Shown: positions 6,471 to 23,710 of the stretch, piece after piece | Layout: every line of letters starts with the position of its first letter | How positions within the stretch are numbered: the first letter of the stretch is position 1 | Virus record (IMG/VR): IMGVR_UViG_3300037440_000402 | Coordinates: 1-39,353 of that record | Length of the DNA: 39,353 nt | Source of the DNA: a virus | Lineage: Duplodnaviria; Caudoviricetes | Reading direction: 5' to 3' (one strand) | Program-made: the position numbers and the translations under genes | Notes under the pieces: generated by a model | What the model was told of the DNA's origin: nothing | What the model saw: only the letters and a program-made list of their open reading frames with translations | The model's database searches: none

Positions 6471-6896
6471 ATGCAACGAGGACTCGGTAGGGACTTCAAC
6501 GTCGTACCGGCTGCGGACGGCGTGTGGCTCAACCTGCGCGACTACGAGGACATCACATTCATCGGCCTACTCGCCGGCGGCGACGACTTCACCATCCAGG
6601 AGGCCACCGCTCAGGCGGGCACCGACAACCAGGATCTTGACGTCGTGTCCCGCTACTACAAGCAGACCGACGGTGACGGCACCGATGCCTGGGTGTTGCA
6701 GGAGCAGACCGCTGACGCGATCGCTAATGGGCACACCACGGCCGCTGCGGTGGCCATCCACGTCAGCGCGGCTGCGCTGTCGCCGGGGTTCGACTTCATC
6801 AAATGCACCGCAACGTCGACCGGCACGGTGGTCGCGATCCTGCACGGGCTGAAGGTGCAGCGCGATCCGGCGAACTTGCCGGCGGTGAGCGCGTGA
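6471..6896 (+). CDS. Putative capsid decoration/cement protein 2 (paralog)
   Basis: Shares LGR.F N-terminus, QDLDVV..Y.KQ/K, LS.GF and L.VQR.P..L C-terminus with 5957-6457. Confidence 0.6.
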   Translation: MQRGLGRDFNVVPAADGVWLNLRDYEDITFIGLLAGGDDFTIQEATAQAGTDNQDLDVVSRYYKQTDGDGTDAWVLQEQTADAIANGHTTAAAVAIHVSAAALSPGFDFIKCTATSTGTVVAILHGLKVQRDPANLPAVSA

Positions 6897-7156
6897 TGGC
6901 GAAGACCACGCGGCACGGCGGCGCGTCGAACGCGCTGGTCACCTATCCGCAGAGCGTCGTCTCGGGCCAGGATTCCCCCGTACCCGAGCCCGATGCGGCT
7001 GAATCGGAGTACGCGGAGTTCACGGTGGAGGAGTTGCGGGCCGAACTGCGGGGCCGCGAGCTTCCCACCTCGGGCGCCAAGGCTGAGCTTGTGGCGCGAC
7101 TCGAAGCGGACGACGCAGCCGCCGACGCAACCGACGACGCGGTTCTAGAGGAGTAA
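6896..7156 (+). CDS. SAP/HeH-domain protein
   Basis: FTVEELRAELRGRELPTSGAKAELVARL matches SAP helix-extended-helix consensus. Confidence 0.75.
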   Translation: MAKTTRHGGASNALVTYPQSVVSGQDSPVPEPDAAESEYAEFTVEELRAELRGRELPTSGAKAELVARLEADDAAADATDDAVLEE

Positions 7157-7991: not shown

Positions 7992-9620
7992 GTGGAGATC
8001 GCGCTTGAGGAGCGTGTAACCGGTAGTTGGAACCCTAACGACACCAAGACGCTGACACTGTCCGGTACCCCGGCGAGCGGGGACCTGATGGTGCTCCGGT
8101 TCGTCGCAGACTCGGTTCCGAGCACGCCCGCGGGATGGACCAGGGTTGACGGTGGCTACTCAGGCGGCACCACCGACACTGGCATATTCGCCCGGCTGGG
8201 CAACGGCAGTGTCAACTCGGTCACGCTGCCGGTTACCGCCGATGCGGTCGCGGTTCTGGACTGGTGGACTGGCAACGTATCCACCGCGATCGGTGATTGT
8301 GTCGACCAGACTGACGCGAACACCGGGGCGAGCACAGCAGGTCCGACCGGCACGACAGCACAAGCCGACGAGTTGGCGTTATTCGCTTACGGCGACGGCG
8401 GCAATTCAACCCTCGGCACATGGACCTCGTCGGACTCTGAGGACGCGGATCTCCAGTCACCGGGCGGCCCTGGCGGTGAGGTCAGCGGCGGGTTCTACTC
8501 CCGGACGCTGACCGCAACTGGAACTGTCTCGGGCAGTGCGACCGAGAGTAGTGGAACCGCTAGTAACCGTTCCGGTGTCGTTGTTACTTTCAATGCCGCA
8601 GCTGGTGGCATCACCGGAACCCTGGCGGTAACCCAAGATCCTCAGACTCTTACAGCTTCCGGATCGGTCACATCTACGGGCTCGCTCGCTAAGACTCAGG
8701 ACAACCAGACCCTGTCGGCGAGCGGCACTGTCACCTCGGTCGGCTCGCTCGCTGAGACTCAAGATGACCAGACCCTTGCCGCGTCCGGATCTAGCGGCAC
8801 CACGGTCACGGGCTCGCTCGCGGAGACGCAGGACGCTCAGACTCTCGCTGCATCCGGCACCATCACGTCTACCGGTTCGCTGGCCGAGACCCAGGATGCG
8901 CAGACCCTGGCGGCATCCGGGTACATCACCTCCACGGGTTCGCTCGCCGAAACTCAGGCCGATCAGACGCTAGCCGCGTCTGGCTCTGTCACGTCTACCG
9001 GTTCGCTCGCTGAGATTCAGGCGGACCAAACCTTGGCGGCGTCGGGTTCAGTCGGGGGTGCCATCACTGGCTCCCTGAGCGAGATTCAGGCAGACGACAC
9101 CCTGGTCGCGTCTGGCACTGTCACCTCGGTCGGCTCGCTCGCTGAGACTCAGGCGGACCAAACGCTCACCGCCAGTGGGCACATCACTTCGACAGGTAGT
9201 CTCGCTGAGACTCAGGCCAACCAGACACTAGCCGCGTCCGGCACTGTCGGCGACGTCTCCGTGGGCACCTTGGCAGAGACGCAGGCGGACCAGACCCTTG
9301 CCGCCTCGGGCGTTGTCATCTCGACCGGCAGCCTAGCGGAAACGCAGGCTGATCAGACCCTGGTCGCCAACGGTTCCGTGCAAGGGCCGGCCACCGGCAC
9401 CCTCTCGGTGACCCAGGCCGACCAGACGTTGGCTGCGACCGGCGTCGTCACTGTCACCGGCTCACTCGCCGTGACCCAGGCCGACCAGACATTGGCCGCC
9501 AACGGTTCGATTCCCGAAGGCGGAGCGCTCTCCACCCTGTTCGGTGAGGGCCACCGCGACGTGATCGGCAGCATCGACACGCCACCCACCCACAGCATCA
9601 TCGGACTCATCGTCCGCTGA
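7992..9620 (+). CDS. Repeat-rich fibre protein (putative head/collar fibre)
   Basis: N-terminal beta domain (GDLMVL...TPAGWT) then 14 copies of GSLAETQADQTLAASG-x5-7; located in head-neck region. Confidence 0.7.
   Translation: MEIALEERVTGSWNPNDTKTLTLSGTPASGDLMVLRFVADSVPSTPAGWTRVDGGYSGGTTDTGIFARLGNGSVNSVTLPVTADAVAVLDWWTGNVSTAIGDCVDQTDANTGASTAGPTGTTAQADELALFAYGDGGNSTLGTWTSSDSEDADLQSPGGPGGEVSGGFYSRTLTATGTVSGSATESSGTASNRSGVVVTFNAAAGGITGTLAVTQDPQTLTASGSVTSTGSLAKTQDNQTLSASGTVTSVGSLAETQDDQTLAASGSSGTTVTGSLAETQDAQTLAASGTITSTGSLAETQDAQTLAASGYITSTGSLAETQADQTLAASGSVTSTGSLAEIQADQTLAASGSVGGAITGSLSEIQADDTLVASGTVTSVGSLAETQADQTLTASGHITSTGSLAETQANQTLAASGTVGDVSVGTLAETQADQTLAASGVVISTGSLAETQADQTLVANGSVQGPATGTLSVTQADQTLAATGVVTVTGSLAVTQADQTLAANGSIPEGGALSTLFGEGHRDVIGSIDTPPTHSIIGLIVR
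8616..9510 (+). repeat. Intragenic tandem repeat, 14 units of 63-69 bp
   Basis: 21/23-aa units; exact 38-bp duplicate at 8724-8761 and 9114-9151. Confidence 0.9.
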
Positions 9621-19787: not shown

Positions 19788-20126
19788 CTATTTGCTTGTC
19801 ACAGACCGTTCCCGGTCGTACTGCACCGCCGCCATCTGCGTGGCCAGCCGCGCATCCAAATGCTCGCGGGTGCCGTCCCACTCGTGCGCCACCCACCACT
19901 GCAGGCGGCGCAGCGACATGGCCCGGCCCTCCAGCCAGCCGTCACGCCACGGGGACGGCGCCAGCCACAACCATGCAGCCACCCGGTCCCGCAGCAACTC
20001 GATCTCGTCCGCCGCCTCGGCCACCACATCCGGTGAGTCCACATCCATGCGGTACTCGCGCAGCCGGGTCACCAGGTCACGGTCGTGGGTCGGGTCGAGC
20101 TCCTCGAGGTTTCGATCGTCGGTCAT
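19788..20126 (-). CDS. Hypothetical protein
   Basis: gaggag RBS; DLVTRLR...EAADEIELLR motif common in phage early genes. Confidence 0.65.
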   Translation of the reverse strand: MTDDRNLEELDPTHDRDLVTRLREYRMDVDSPDVVAEAADEIELLRDRVAAWLWLAPSPWRDGWLEGRAMSLRRLQWWVAHEWDGTREHLDARLATQMAAVQYDRERSVTSK

Positions 20127-20134
20127 GACACTCC

Positions 20135-20824
20135 TCACTGCCCGTAGATGTTGTTGACCGTGCGCCGGTCCGCCGTCGACAAGTACGAGATCCACTTGCA
20201 CTCGGTGATCTGCGACATCACCGACCCGCACGTGTCCCACCGGTGGTCCAACCCCACCGCATGCCCGATCTCGTGGGTGGCGATGTGATCCCACCCCCAC
20301 GAGCCGTACGAGTAGGACCGGTTCAGCACCACCACGCGGTAGCGGTAGTTCACCTTCGTCCACCCGCCGGCGATCGTCTGCCGCCAGTTCGCGCACTCCA
20401 GATTGATCCCTGCTGGCGGGTCGCAGTAGCGGCCCCGGTGGCGATGCTTGCCCACCCAGCCGGTCTTGCCGTAGTAGCCGTCGATTACGATGATCCGCTG
20501 GTCGTACTTGGTGGCGTAGCCGACGCACGAGCCAGTGCCGCGCTTGTAGTACACCCGCAGCACTGTGTTGGCGTTGTAGTCTGCCGCCGCGTTTCTGACT
20601 GCGCCCTGCAACGTTGACGAGCGGGTGCGGTCCTCCACGCACAGATGGGTTCCGTAGAACCGCTGCCCGAGATAGTTCGGGTCGGACACGGTGTCGTCGG
20701 CGCGGGCCGCCTGTGCCCCGGCCAGCGCGAGCGCGGCGAGGAATGCCAGCGCGGCGGCGCCGGCCAGCAGGCGGCGCGGCAGCGGGTTGCGGGTGGCGGC
20801 GTAACGGCCGCGGGTCGTGGTCAT
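20135..20824 (-). CDS. Secreted zinc metalloprotease (metzincin/matrixin-like)
   Basis: HEIGHAVGLDH zinc motif, SVM Met-turn, RR-containing signal peptide ending AARA. Confidence 0.88.
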   Translation of the reverse strand: MTTTRGRYAATRNPLPRRLLAGAAALAFLAALALAGAQAARADDTVSDPNYLGQRFYGTHLCVEDRTRSSTLQGAVRNAAADYNANTVLRVYYKRGTGSCVGYATKYDQRIIVIDGYYGKTGWVGKHRHRGRYCDPPAGINLECANWRQTIAGGWTKVNYRYRVVVLNRSYSYGSWGWDHIATHEIGHAVGLDHRWDTCGSVMSQITECKWISYLSTADRRTVNNIYGQ

Positions 20825-21213
20825 GATGACTCCACCGGCTGGATGGTGTTGGCCACCGCCCGCATAGTGAAAATGATCGTTCGTAGCCGCTCGGCATCAT
20901 GGGGTCGGAAGTTGCGCCATTCATCGGACCAATCCCACTCGTTTTCGTTGTGCGTGCAGCCCTTGTTTGGTTCGCCTTGAACTTCGGGTAGACATGGGCA
21001 ACCGAGTGATCCGGGCAGGAGTAGGACATGTCCAGCGGCGCATTCAACTCGCCAATGTTGGGTGTGCGCCCACTCGGATGACAGTGGGGGTAGCGCATTG
21101 GTCTCCGCATCCGTATCGAGATCGTCCGGGCTGAGGCTGGCGGCTAGCTCCCAAGTGATGAACAGTGCTTCGCTGCAGTCTGGGAATGAGCACACGACGT
21201 CGTACTCGCTCAT
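20821..21213 (-). CDS. Cys-rich hypothetical protein
   Basis: 130 aa, ATGA-coupled at both ends; lower-GC codon usage. Confidence 0.6.
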   Translation of the reverse strand: MSEYDVVCSFPDCSEALFITWELAASLSPDDLDTDAETNALPPLSSEWAHTQHWRVECAAGHVLLLPGSLGCPCLPEVQGEPNKGCTHNENEWDWSDEWRNFRPHDAERLRTIIFTMRAVANTIQPVESS

Positions 21214-21521
21214 GCCCCCGCCCCCAGCAGCAGCGGCAGCACGACGAACAGCGCGAACGTGTCCGCGCCGACGTAGCCGAGCACCAGCCCGGCCACCGCC
21301 ATGCCCTTGCCGGACTGGTTGCTGTGCTTGATCTGGTCCAGTGCGATGTGGCCGAACAGGATCGCCAGCGTCGAGCCGAGCCAGAACAGCCACAGGATGC
21401 CGAGCACGAGCGCGGCGACGGCCAGGCCGTTGGTGGGCTGGTGAAAGAACGGGGGCGGTGACTGGTAGGTGTACGGCTGGTACGCGGTCTCGGGTGCCTC
21501 GTACGGGTCGTTGGTGCTCAT
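21210..21521 (-). CDS. DUF4190-type membrane protein
   Basis: TNGLAVAALVLGI...GHIALDQIK...GKGMAVAGLVLGY signature; Pro/Tyr-rich N-terminus. Confidence 0.85.
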   Translation of the reverse strand: MSTNDPYEAPETAYQPYTYQSPPPFFHQPTNGLAVAALVLGILWLFWLGSTLAILFGHIALDQIKHSNQSGKGMAVAGLVLGYVGADTFALFVVLPLLLGAGA

Positions 21522-21597: not shown

Positions 21598-22509
21598 CTA
21601 CATCTGGTCGACGATCCGCCGCAGCGCGTCACCGGGCAGCTGGGCATACCCGGCCGAGGTGTCGAGCTTCGCGTGACCGGCCAGGGCCGCCACGGTGCGG
21701 ATGTCACCGGAAATCTGGTAGGCGCGGGTCAGGAACGCGTGCCTGAGTGTGTGTGCGGTCCAGTTCGCGCCGAGCGCGTCGCTGGCGATCCGGCCGATGG
21801 TCTCCGGGGCGAGGTGTCCGCGCTGGTTGCCGGGGAAGACGTAGTCGTCGCCGCTTTCGTACTTACCTAGTGCGCCGGCCAGCTTGCCGTTGAGCGGGAT
21901 CTCACGGGTCCGCTTGCCCTTCCCGACGATCCGCAACGTATCCACGCCGACGCTCTCCCACCGCAGCGACGCGATCTCAGCACGGCGCAGCCCGGCGTAG
22001 TAGCCGAGCAGCAGCACCAGCCGCGCCCGCGGGTCGGCCCGTTTGGCCGCAACTTCGACCACCTCGGTCGGCACCGGCCGTGGCAGCCCGGACGGAACCG
22101 ACCCGGACGGCAGCCGATCGGCCGGGTTCCGCTTGATGTGCCCGGCCAGGCGGCCCCAGTTGTAGAAGCCGCGCAGGGTGGCCCGGTACACCATCTGCGA
22201 GGACGGCTGCCAGTCGTAGCGGCCGAGCCAGGCGATCAGGTCGGCGCGGGTGAGCTTCCACGGGGAGCGGCGCACGTGGTCTTCGGCGAGGATGCCGAGC
22301 TGGTATTTGCGCTGCCGGATGGTCTGCGCGCTGAGTCCGGCCGCGTGCATCTCGGCGACGTAGCCGCCGATGGCGTGCTGCCAGTCTTGGACGTGTCCGC
22401 GCCCGAACACGTCGCCCCCCTCCGAGATCGCCCCCCCAGGGATCTTCGGGTCAGGGTCGGCACCGTACTCCTGGCCGGAGACTGTTGCGACCGGTTCGGC
22501 GGAAGTCAT
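21598..22509 (-). CDS. int: Tyrosine recombinase/integrase lacking an arm-binding domain (Xer-like)
   Basis: AGLRRAE (R), GKG (K), HTLRH, AGH, TSAGY (Y) catalytic set; start either ATG 22509 (coupled) or GTG 22410 (ggagggg RBS). Confidence 0.93.
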   Translation of the reverse strand: MTSAEPVATVSGQEYGADPDPKIPGGAISEGGDVFGRGHVQDWQHAIGGYVAEMHAAGLSAQTIRQRKYQLGILAEDHVRRSPWKLTRADLIAWLGRYDWQPSSQMVYRATLRGFYNWGRLAGHIKRNPADRLPSGSVPSGLPRPVPTEVVEVAAKRADPRARLVLLLGYYAGLRRAEIASLRWESVGVDTLRIVGKGKRTREIPLNGKLAGALGKYESGDDYVFPGNQRGHLAPETIGRIASDALGANWTAHTLRHAFLTRAYQISGDIRTVAALAGHAKLDTSAGYAQLPGDALRRIVDQM

Positions 22510-23018
22510 GGCGACCACCACAATTGCGGCTCTGTATCGCCGCGCACATACAACGGGTGACGTGGCGCGCCTGCCTTCGTCATGCCCAGGCAATGCACAG
22601 CGGATCGCCGGCTTCCGAGCCCATGAAGCATGATTCGCAGGGCGCTCACTCGTACTGGTTCCGCATTGACGCCCCACGCGGCGATGATCAGGTCGTCGCC
22701 GGTTAGATAGTTGAGTAGATGACGGTCGTTGTCCGGACCAACCGGATCAACCGTTCGCCATAGATCGGTGGGTTTAGTCGCGCGATAGGCATACAGATTG
22801 AGTACGACGATGCCCCCGAGCCCCCACGTTCGTGCGAAGTCCGTGCAACGGCGGATAGTCGGATCGTCCTGCTCGGCATCCGCCGTGGATGGGTTGAGCA
22901 TGATGAACACGGCGCGCGACTTGGTGACATCCCAACGGCGATGAAGAGTGTAGCGATATCGGCCGCAGGTGGAGATTTTGGCCATCTTAAGGACATCGTC
23001 GGGCTGGCGGTTGTTCAT
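22506..23018 (-). CDS. DUF1643-family protein
   Basis: CGRYRYTL.R.W, FIMLNPSTAD, DDPTIRRC, NLYAYRATKP, AAWG, PRHPLY signature. Confidence 0.85.
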   Translation of the reverse strand: MNNRQPDDVLKMAKISTCGRYRYTLHRRWDVTKSRAVFIMLNPSTADAEQDDPTIRRCTDFARTWGLGGIVVLNLYAYRATKPTDLWRTVDPVGPDNDRHLLNYLTGDDLIIAAWGVNAEPVRVSALRIMLHGLGSRRSAVHCLGMTKAGAPRHPLYVRGDTEPQLWWSP

Positions 23019-23401
23019 GACCGGCGCTCCGTAATCTCGGCTCGGTTGCTCGGCCGGCGCTGGTTGTGGCCGAGGGCTTTGCGCATGGCGGTGATGTCGT
23101 TGCGGACCTCGGTGTAACCCGGCTGTTGATCTCTCATAAGAGCCGTTATATGAGATCCATTAGACCTTCCATTGCCCATAAGCCACGTATAAGGGACGCC
23201 GGTCCTCATCGCCCACAGCTTCACCGCTGATGCCGGCGGCCGGGCGTGTCCGTAGATCCAATTGCTGATCGTATTGCGGTGAACCTCCAGATATTGCGCC
23301 ATCTCAGCGCTGGAGACGTCCGCGTGGTCCAGGCTCTTGCGCAGCCTGTCGGCCAGTGTCCACTGAGGGATGCCTAGGTCCTGCTCCATTGGCTCACTCA
23401 T
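23015..23401 (-). CDS. Immunity repressor, XRE HTH
   Basis: IPQWTLADRLRK...MAQYLEVHRNTISNW...RTGVPYTWL; divergent from Cro-like gene; same strand as int. Confidence 0.88.
   Translation of the reverse strand: MSEPMEQDLGIPQWTLADRLRKSLDHADVSSAEMAQYLEVHRNTISNWIYGHARPPASAVKLWAMRTGVPYTWLMGNGRSNGSHITALMRDQQPGYTEVRNDITAMRKALGHNQRRPSNRAEITERRS
23128..23157. other. Putative attP core, dif/Xer-like recombination site inside the repressor gene
   Basis: gATCTCTCATAA-gagccg-TTATATGAGATc: 11-bp inverted arms (9/11 match) around a 6-bp spacer with ATAA/TTAT inner ends; AT-rich island. Confidence 0.65.
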
Positions 23402-23437
23402 AACCTGAGCATATGCACGGTACCGTGCGCCACGCAA
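23402..23437 (-). promoter_or_regulatory. Leaderless repressor promoter with operator in spacer
   Basis: Minus strand TTGCGT-18-TATGCT-6 nt-ATG; spacer holds perfect palindrome gcacggtaccgtgc (23415-23428). Confidence 0.7.
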
Positions 23438-23465
23438 GAGTTTCAAGGAAACCACGTCCACTATG

Positions 23466-23500
23466 TTGACACGATGCTGTGCATCGCACAAGATAGAGCC
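23466..23500 (+). promoter_or_regulatory. Leaderless early lytic promoter with operator
   Basis: TTGACA-17-CAAGAT-6 nt-GTG; overlaps acacgatgctgtgcat (23469-23484), which resembles the other operator. Confidence 0.7.
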
Positions 23501-23710
23501 GTGACCGAAACTCTGGACCTCATCACCACGACCGAGGCCGCACAGATCCTAGGCGTCGACCGGGCCACAGTCTCGCGTTGGTCCAGCGCCAAGTTGCTGC
23601 CCGAGGCCCGCAAGCTGACACCCGCCGCGCGAATCGGCGGCTATGCCGCGTTCCGCCGCGCCGATGTCGAAGCGCTGCGCGACGAGATGGCCACCAAGGA
23701 GGCGTCGTGA
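23501..23710 (+). CDS. Cro/excisionase-like HTH_17 DNA-binding protein
   Basis: LITTTEAAQILGVDRATVSRW...FRRADVEAL. Confidence 0.85.
   Translation: MTETLDLITTTEAAQILGVDRATVSRWSSAKLLPEARKLTPAARIGGYAAFRRADVEALRDEMATKEAS

What the first reader, a model, noticed from the sequence alone, without database searches (positions are those of the whole stretch)
21598..23710. Candidate integration-dependent lysogeny switch using a dif/Xer-like attP inside the repressor gene
Seen: 23128-23157 is gATCTCTCATAA-gagccg-TTATATGAGATc, an 11-6-11 inverted-repeat site with the ATAA-N6-TTAT core of Xer/dif sites. It covers repressor codons ~82-91, just after the HTH domain (ends ~75), so recombination there would replace the last ~40 residues. 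The integrase downstream on the same strand has only core-binding and catalytic domains. Known: mycobacteriophages such as BPs and Brujita place attP inside the repressor and use arm-less integrases; integration removes a C-terminal degradation tag and so establishes immunity, with tRNA genes as the usual attB. Different here: no tRNA-like sequence is visible at the site, and neither the repressor (ends ITERRS) nor Int (ends IVDQM) has an ssrA-like Ala-rich end. Inference: a variant switch that targets the host dif or a dif-like site (IMEX-like) with a different way of inactivating the full-length repressor, or a multimer-resolution site for extrachromosomal maintenance.
Basis: partly seen in the sequence, partly recalled or inferred. 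Interest (0 to 1): 0.82.

Follow-up and report, generated by a model that had tools for sequence, protein, structure and literature searches.

The report
Palindromic integration site inside phage repressor
An uncultured actinobacterial phage carries a conserved palindrome inside its repressor gene that likely serves as the integration site of an already known 'integrate-to-become-immune' switch; it partly resembles the bacterial dif site, but no host target was found.

Summary
The window is a circular 39 kb actinophage genome with int-(DUF1643)-rep | cro. An imperfect 12-6-12 palindrome (10 of 12 pairs) lies at repressor codons 82-92 and is the genome's only ATAA-N6-TTAT. Its peptide pattern recurs in 10 related repressors, and it aligns in register with a sister phage's palindrome (compensatory inner-pair change) and with a tRNA-Asn attP. 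It is therefore likely the attP of a BPs/Brujita-type integration-dependent immunity switch, read by the phage's own arm-less integrase. The claimed differences are already published: Dedrick et al. 2021 (PMC8092301) describe such switches with non-tRNA attB, short palindromic cores, no ssrA tags and extra genes between rep and int. Dif targeting is unproven. The site scores 11 bits on a dif profile (real sites 37.5 or more), breaks invariant dif bases, and its spacer differs from all 14 dif sequences collected. Still, dif-locus sites are the only chromosomal look-alikes above chance in 301 genomes. No attB, attL/attR or prophage was found. The scan noted a similar case on other DNA (e1-6303633). 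Verdict: new member of a known kind; dif targeting about 0.2.

The parts
21598..22509 (-). Arm-less tyrosine integrase, 303 aa from the ATG at 22509 (start inferred from the ATGA overlap and an N-terminus shared with the sister phage L095); ends IVDQM
   Evidence: Pfam PF00589 E 3.6e-19; R175, K197, H253, R256, H279, Y288 invariant in 28 aligned homologues; best PDB hit 5vfz 'Gp33', 318 aa, the same length as Brujita gp33; far below the XerC/XerD cut-offs
22506..23018 (-). DUF1643 gene inserted between rep and int, overlapping both by ATGA
   Evidence: Pfam PF07799 E 1.9e-44; the sister phage L095 has other genes here
23015..23401 (-). Immunity repressor, 128 aa: HTH at 16-75, site-coded peptide GSHITALMRD at 82-91, low-confidence tail ending ITERRS
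   Evidence: (53-55% identity to cluster P immunity repressors over residues 1-74)
23128..23157 (.). Imperfect 12-6-12 palindrome, likely attP; spacer 23140-23145
23052..23127 (-). Repressor 3' tail (PGYTEVRNDITAMRKALGH), predicted to be removed by integration; shared with related phages as a DNA module together with the site
23402..23500 (.). Divergent rep/cro control region with short palindromes (23415 GCACGGTACCGTGC) that are candidate operators
   Evidence: no sigma-70 consensus match
23501..23710 (+). Cro-like HTH gene
   Evidence: Pfam HTH_17 E 5.9e-10; phrog_66

Best explanation
The palindrome in the repressor gene is likely the attP of an integration-dependent immunity switch: the phage's own arm-less integrase would bind its two arms and recombine it with a short-core, non-tRNA site in an actinobacterial chromosome that has not been identified. 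Integration would cut the repressor at about codon 86-88, drop the roughly 40-residue tail and give the active prophage repressor (inferred from BPs). It would also separate DUF1643 and int from the rep promoter, so the prophage stays put. The full-length form would be inactivated by a non-ssrA signal in the tail. Shown: gene order, domains, the site, its conservation and its register with sister sites. Inferred: Int binding, crossover, truncation, degradation and immunity.
For: (1) Gene order int<-rep|cro-> as in BPs (PMC3694055). (2) The Int is arm-less with intact catalytic residues. In a quick tree it nests among Ints of this switch type, including a tRNA-Asn-targeting one, and apart from two host Xer-like recombinases; XerC/XerD proper were not in the tree. 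(3) 11 of 137 repressor rows examined (the window's included) carry S-x-I-x-x-[LI]-[MI]-x, the peptide coded by the two arms. Mean identity of the 10 relatives to the window is 75% over the site, 60% over the HTH and 29% over the linker. (4) A related phage contig in run X5 shares 23052-23159 and then runs into a different repressor; no listed difference falls in 23124-23163. (5) Sister phage L095 has TATAC-CTGCTG-GTATA at the aligned position, a double change at the inner pair that keeps the symmetry; L231 has CCAAC-CTGCCG-GT, matching a host tRNA-Asn gene in L395. (6) Precedent: M. abscessus MabC/N/O/H switches use non-tRNA attB with cores of 3-25 bp and lack ssrA tags; the attB-14 core lies in an 8-6-8 AT-rich palindrome, my reading of the printed sequence (PMC8092301).
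Against: No attB, attL, attR or truncated repressor was found. The exact-site scan of GTDB contigs gave 0. The Int scan of GTDB gave at best 45% identity. 6 of 6 metagenome pattern hits were unrelated. The 10 contigs laid from four runs show no junction inside the site. DNA of the 10 related repressors could not be fetched, so their palindromes are back-translated from protein. Rep-Int pairing for relatives rests only on equal contig lengths (P0129/P0003 1742; P0128/P0006 2051).
Confidence: 0.6

Rival explanations
1. Same switch, but attB is the host dif or a dif-locus site, recombined by the phage Int with only partial spacer match.
For: A consensus taken from the repressor tails (TC-N4-ATAA-N6-TTATR-NN-AGA, at most 1 mismatch) hit 45 of 301 genomes of one actinobacterial order. 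These were dif-like sites in 12 genomes, a dif-adjacent recombinase palindrome in 27, and 8 other sites against 11 control hits. The closest dif (L355) shares 17 of 22 arm bases and 2 spacer bases at the XerC side. The site is the top dif-profile hit in the phage, 11.3 bits against 4.2 for the next site.
Against: Real dif sites score 37.5 or more. The site breaks profile-invariant G4, C6, G7 and one of G22/T23, and its spacer scores -8. That profile is biased twice: the collecting pattern fixed several positions, and many members were found with the phage consensus. No collected dif spacer matches more than 3 of 6 bases. A spacer-specific search hit 11 of 401 genomes, none a canonical dif. The sister site in L095 has lost the AA/TT core.
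Confidence: 0.16
2. IMEX-type integration at dif by host XerCD (VGJ-like), with the phage Int accessory or used for excision.
For: 11-6-11 geometry with ATAA/TTAT. VGJ attP differs from dif at four central bases on the XerD side (PMC5357621), and the site likewise matches some dif spacers only on the left.
Against: The phage encodes an intact Int, and sister phages pair other Ints with other sites. The arms are symmetric and lack the conserved XerC- and XerD-arm bases.
Confidence: 0.05
3. A loxP/dif-like multimer-resolution site for an extrachromosomal prophage.
For: The genome is circular (25-bp terminal repeat), the spacer peptide varies among relatives, and no integrated copy was found.
Against: No partition gene among the 39, 29 and 35 ORFs scanned (the sets overlap and do not cover every small ORF). 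The replication initiator sits beside a primase-helicase. Self-recombination would leave rep unchanged, so the position in rep would be unexplained. Assembled circles are normal for phage DNA.
Confidence: 0.07
4. Not an active recombination site: an operator, a vestige, or plain protein conservation.
For: Symmetry of 10 of 12 occurs 7 times in the genome. One arm-like 11-mer with 2 mismatches overlaps the rep start at 23393.
Against: The peptide lies in a region with pLDDT below 50 yet is more conserved than the HTH. It uses ATA, ACG and CTT codons in a 65% GC genome, and it sits in register with sister att sites.
Confidence: 0.09
5. Short-core integration into a tRNA anticodon loop (tRNA-dependent lysogeny type).
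For: One arm contains CTCATAA, the loop of tRNA(CAT) genes. About 10-bp cores are known (PMC10865867 abstract).
Against: The flanks share 0-4 of 10 bases with 11 tRNA-like CAT/GAT sequences, and the phage has no tRNA to complement the loss.
Confidence: 0.03

Closest known systems
Integration-dependent immunity of mycobacteriophages BPs, Brujita, Charlie and cluster P (PMC3694055, PMC4557955, PMC9635641)
   Same: int-rep | cro layout, arm-less Int (29% to Brujita gp33, 30% to BigNuz gp33), repressor HTH 53% to BigNuz gp34, candidate attP in the rep 3' end
   Different: No tRNA 3' half at the site; Rep and Int lack Ala-rich ends (Brujita ends EHAA and LSAA); a DUF1643 gene lies between rep and int
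M. abscessus MabC, MabN, MabO, MabH prophage switches (Dedrick et al. 2021, PMC8092301)
   Same: Non-tRNA attB, short cores, no ssrA tags on Rep or Int, up to 3-5 genes between rep and int in some systems of that set, and a palindromic core with a 6-bp centre at attB-14
   Different: Their attB sites are known and are not described as dif; the core sequences differ; here about 40 residues would be lost, against 20-35
XerCD/dif and IMEXs (CTX, VGJ, TLC, GGI; PMC5357621, PMC3025954)
   Same: 11-6-11 geometry, ATAA-N6-TTATG core, up to 17 of 22 arm bases shared with some actinobacterial dif sites
   Different: Symmetric arms, missing invariant dif bases, unrelated spacer, and a phage with its own intact integrase

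Membership tests
Integration-dependent immunity (BPs/Brujita type) | int and rep co-oriented, cro divergent | tested here: met
Integration-dependent immunity (BPs/Brujita type) | Tyrosine integrase without an arm-binding domain, catalytic residues intact | tested here: met
Integration-dependent immunity (BPs/Brujita type) | attP inside the 3' part of rep | tested here: inconclusive
   Conserved and in register with sister att sites, but no attB or junction found
Integration-dependent immunity (BPs/Brujita type) | ssrA-like tag on Rep and Int (typical, not universal per PMC8092301) | tested here: not met
   0 of 11 site-bearing repressors end in AA; 61 of 137 repressor rows scored Ala-ended by a loose rule
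Integration-dependent immunity (BPs/Brujita type) | Truncated repressor stable and immune, full-length form not | not testable with these tools
   needs experiment
dif / IMEX | 11-6-11 site with ATAA-N6-TTAT core | tested here: met
dif / IMEX | XerC- and XerD-arm consensus of the host phylum | tested here: not met
   11.3 bits against 37.5 or more; invariant bases broken (host unknown, profile from 14 sequences)
dif / IMEX | Central-region homology with host dif on at least one side | tested here: inconclusive
   Rep-strand orientation: best 2 of 6 bases, at the XerC side (L303, L330, L355); opposite orientation 3 of 6, not contiguous (L302)
dif / IMEX | Found integrated at dif; depends on XerCD | tested here: inconclusive
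   No prophage found; dependence not testable here
Plasmid-prophage resolution system (Cre/loxP-like) | Partition or plasmid maintenance genes | tested here: not met
   none among the ORFs scanned

The most novel reading that the evidence does not exclude
A clade of tailed actinophages whose own arm-less integrase has been retargeted from tRNA-Asn to the chromosome dimer-resolution site (dif) or the dif-adjacent palindrome, so that landing at dif itself flips the lysogeny switch by truncating the repressor.
Probability: 0.2. Interest if true: 0.7.

Novelty: new member of a known kind. Interest (0 to 1): 0.33.

Why it matters
As it stands, this adds an uncultured clade to a known switch. It also shows near-identical phage backbones swapping site and integrase together (window, L095, L231), a natural series for studying how arm-less integrases change target. 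If the target proved to be dif, it would join integration-dependent immunity with Xer-site parasitism. I found no such case in 8 literature searches, but the two primary papers (Broussard 2013, Lunt and Hatfull 2016) were not held.

Tried and rejected
Viral contig scans: the Int alone gave 0 relatives; a loose site pattern gave 80 hits, none with rep or int and none above 50% GC; a strict pattern gave 0; the tail peptide gave 0 of 21 candidates. The metagenome scan gave 6 hits, all unrelated. Phage blastn of the site region gave only matches of 37 bases or fewer. GTDB: exact site 0; Int best 45%. A 21-mer with at most 3 mismatches hit 3 of 401 genomes, control 1; this search would miss a dif with an identical spacer by one mismatch. 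A spacer pattern hit 11 of 401; one exact 15-mer in G426, between an lsr2-like and a clpC-like gene (names from my reading of the ORFs), has unrelated arms and was judged chance. The repressor profile hit 1 of 251, 0 of 77 and 0 of 78 genomes. The phylum-wide consensus hit 59 of 401, mostly AT-rich noise; 29 matches were not listed. In the family of G106, 8 of 61 genomes matched. Five carry a recurrent site with one identical 10-bp arm, but it is the start of an HTH gene, with the other arm and spacer unrelated, so it was rejected. The representative search with the tail found only P0128 as a repressor among 4 hits. There is no special ssDNA fold (z -0.15), so no CTX-like hairpin attP. The first read-laying run was too broad to show junctions. 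In-silico joins to 9 dif flanks in both orientations give repressors of 89-187 aa, so an immediate stop depends on the host. The tree is the quick one; the careful search did not finish. The AlphaFold model leaves the tail unresolved.

Full report
Setting. The window is the whole record and has a 25-bp terminal repeat, so it is a circular assembly of a tailed phage: terminase, portal, capsid, tape measure, WhiB, primase-helicase and amidase. GC is about 65%. WhiB and the nearest annotated relatives point to an actinobacterial host, which remains unknown. Holders are sediment metagenomes, the best of which may be the source.

Observation. The palindrome is at 23128-23157 with 10 of 12 pairs around a 6-bp spacer. 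ATAA-N6-TTAT is unique in the genome. Symmetry of that degree is not rare by itself (7 sites, shuffle mean 3.0), but the 30-mer is among the 0.25% most AT-rich. It begins in codon 82 of the repressor, after the HTH.

Conservation. Two homologue searches (33 hits, and the best 120 of 831) gave 137 repressor rows for inspection. Eleven, the window's included, carry the peptide coded by the arms: GSHITALMR, GSHIRALIR, SRIKALIR, SIITALIRD, SNITRIMGD, STIRRIMVD, SHITAIMQD (P0164, also aligned, lacks it). Identity is higher over the site (75%) than over the HTH (60%) or linker (29%), although the region is predicted unstructured. That is what a DNA constraint would produce. Contigs of related phages share about 23050-23160 with different flanks and cross the site intact. 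None of the 11 ends in AA. Non-Ala ends and a similar tail motif also occur in repressors with tRNA-type sites (L231), so the missing tag is not tied to this site.

Sister sites. IMG/VR record L095 is a close relative of this phage (91% DNA identity over the gene after cro) with a different Int catalytic part and a repressor ending LRLAA. At the aligned position it has TATAC-CTGCTG-GTATA against the window's TATAA-CGGCTC-TTATG: 4 of 6 spacer bases shared and a double change of the inner pair that keeps symmetry. L231 has a tRNA-type site in the same register, whose 24-mer matches a tRNA-Asn gene in a Sporichthyaceae MAG, with identity ending two bases after the spacer; that register is my alignment on CAAC-CTGCCG-GT. 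In a quick tree the window's Int groups with six metagenomic Ints (support 97), next to L095/L100 (80), inside a clade holding L231 (99). This supports an Int-read att site that has changed along with its integrase.

The dif question. Dif-like sites of candidate hosts were identified by resemblance to the predicted F. alni dif (PMC3025954, passages). For dif: the phage consensus picks out, above chance, only dif (12 of 301 genomes) and a dif-adjacent palindrome (27 of 301), with 8 other sites against 11 control hits; the best dif shares 17 of 22 arm bases. Against dif: the site scores 11 bits against 37.5 or more, breaks invariant positions and has a negative spacer score; no dif with the phage spacer appeared in 401 genomes; and the dif-adjacent palindrome, which overlaps the start of a non-XerC/D recombinase gene, shows that ATAA-N6-TTAT is not diagnostic of XerCD. 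The profile is small and biased by how its members were found, so neither the resemblance nor the failure is decisive. That Brujita Int tolerates mismatches on one side of its overlap is recalled from Lunt and Hatfull 2016, which was not held; it keeps partial-match targeting plausible.

No integrated form was found by any route (1,990 genome searches in all, with repeats between samples).

Literature. The mechanism is from PMC3694055 (parts 1-2 of 3) and passages of PMC4557955, PMC9635641 and PMC9934374. PMC8092301 (passages and supplement hits) reports nine prophage switches at six attB sites, four of them non-tRNA, with short cores; MabC, N, O and H repressors and several Ints lack ssrA tags; and some have 3-5 genes between rep and int. 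Its attB-14 core lies in TATTCTTAC-TCCAGA-GTAAGAAT, a palindrome with a 6-bp centre (my reading of the printed sequence). PMC5559632 notes an extra gene between rep and int in GMA5 and unidentified attP sites for about half of the tyrosine-integrase phages (passages). IMEX classes come from passages of PMC5357621. PMC6109161 and PMC8138268 were seen as passages and PMC10865867 as abstract. Supplements of the other papers were not read and could list a dif-like attB.

Verdict. The feature is real and most likely the attP of a known kind of switch. Interest 0.33.

Noticed in passing
L313-L329, L340, L345-L350 (e.g. G614:C1:3609502, G642:C1:4119022, G512:C1:2954392): A near-perfect palindrome TCATGCATAA-N6-TTATGCATGA, with variable spacer, occurs in 27 of 301 genomes of one actinobacterial order. 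It lies at the start of an Xer-like tyrosine recombinase gene that scores below the XerC/XerD cut-offs (2 of 2 tested) and 276-498 bp from canonical dif in 5 of 5 genomes checked. It may be a second, single-recombinase resolution system or a domesticated dif-integrated element. One literature search and one scan look-up found no description.
   Followed up: partly
L095:4230-4378, L100:2620-2767; P0127, P0136, P0161, P0168 and others: One phage group carries at least five kinds of repressor tail or att site (tRNA-Asn, IPAGIP, DFGPP, IRSGIH, SHITALMR) ahead of a shared 'EI..[MF]RK' tail motif, a candidate non-ssrA inactivation signal.
   Followed up: partly
L219:3067-3094: A dif-like 28-mer lies about 40 bp after a tyrosine recombinase gene in an IMG/VR contig; a possible dif-associated element.
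   Followed up: no
window 22506-23018: DUF1643 gene coupled by ATGA overlaps between rep and int; sister phages carry unrelated genes at this spot.
   Followed up: partly
window 19788-21521 (- strand): Leftward genes after int include a DUF4190 membrane protein and an M10-like metallopeptidase with a signal-like N-terminus, shared with L095; possible lysogen-expressed surface or exclusion genes.
   Followed up: no
window 6803-7156 and 7992-9620: A SAP-domain protein and a 542-aa protein with internal 38-57 bp repeats in the head gene region.
   Followed up: no
L385-L388, L390 at 1500-1527: A mobile HTH-gene pair whose 5' end carries GATAA-N6-TTATATGAGA, a likely operator, in 5 of 61 genomes.
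   Followed up: partly
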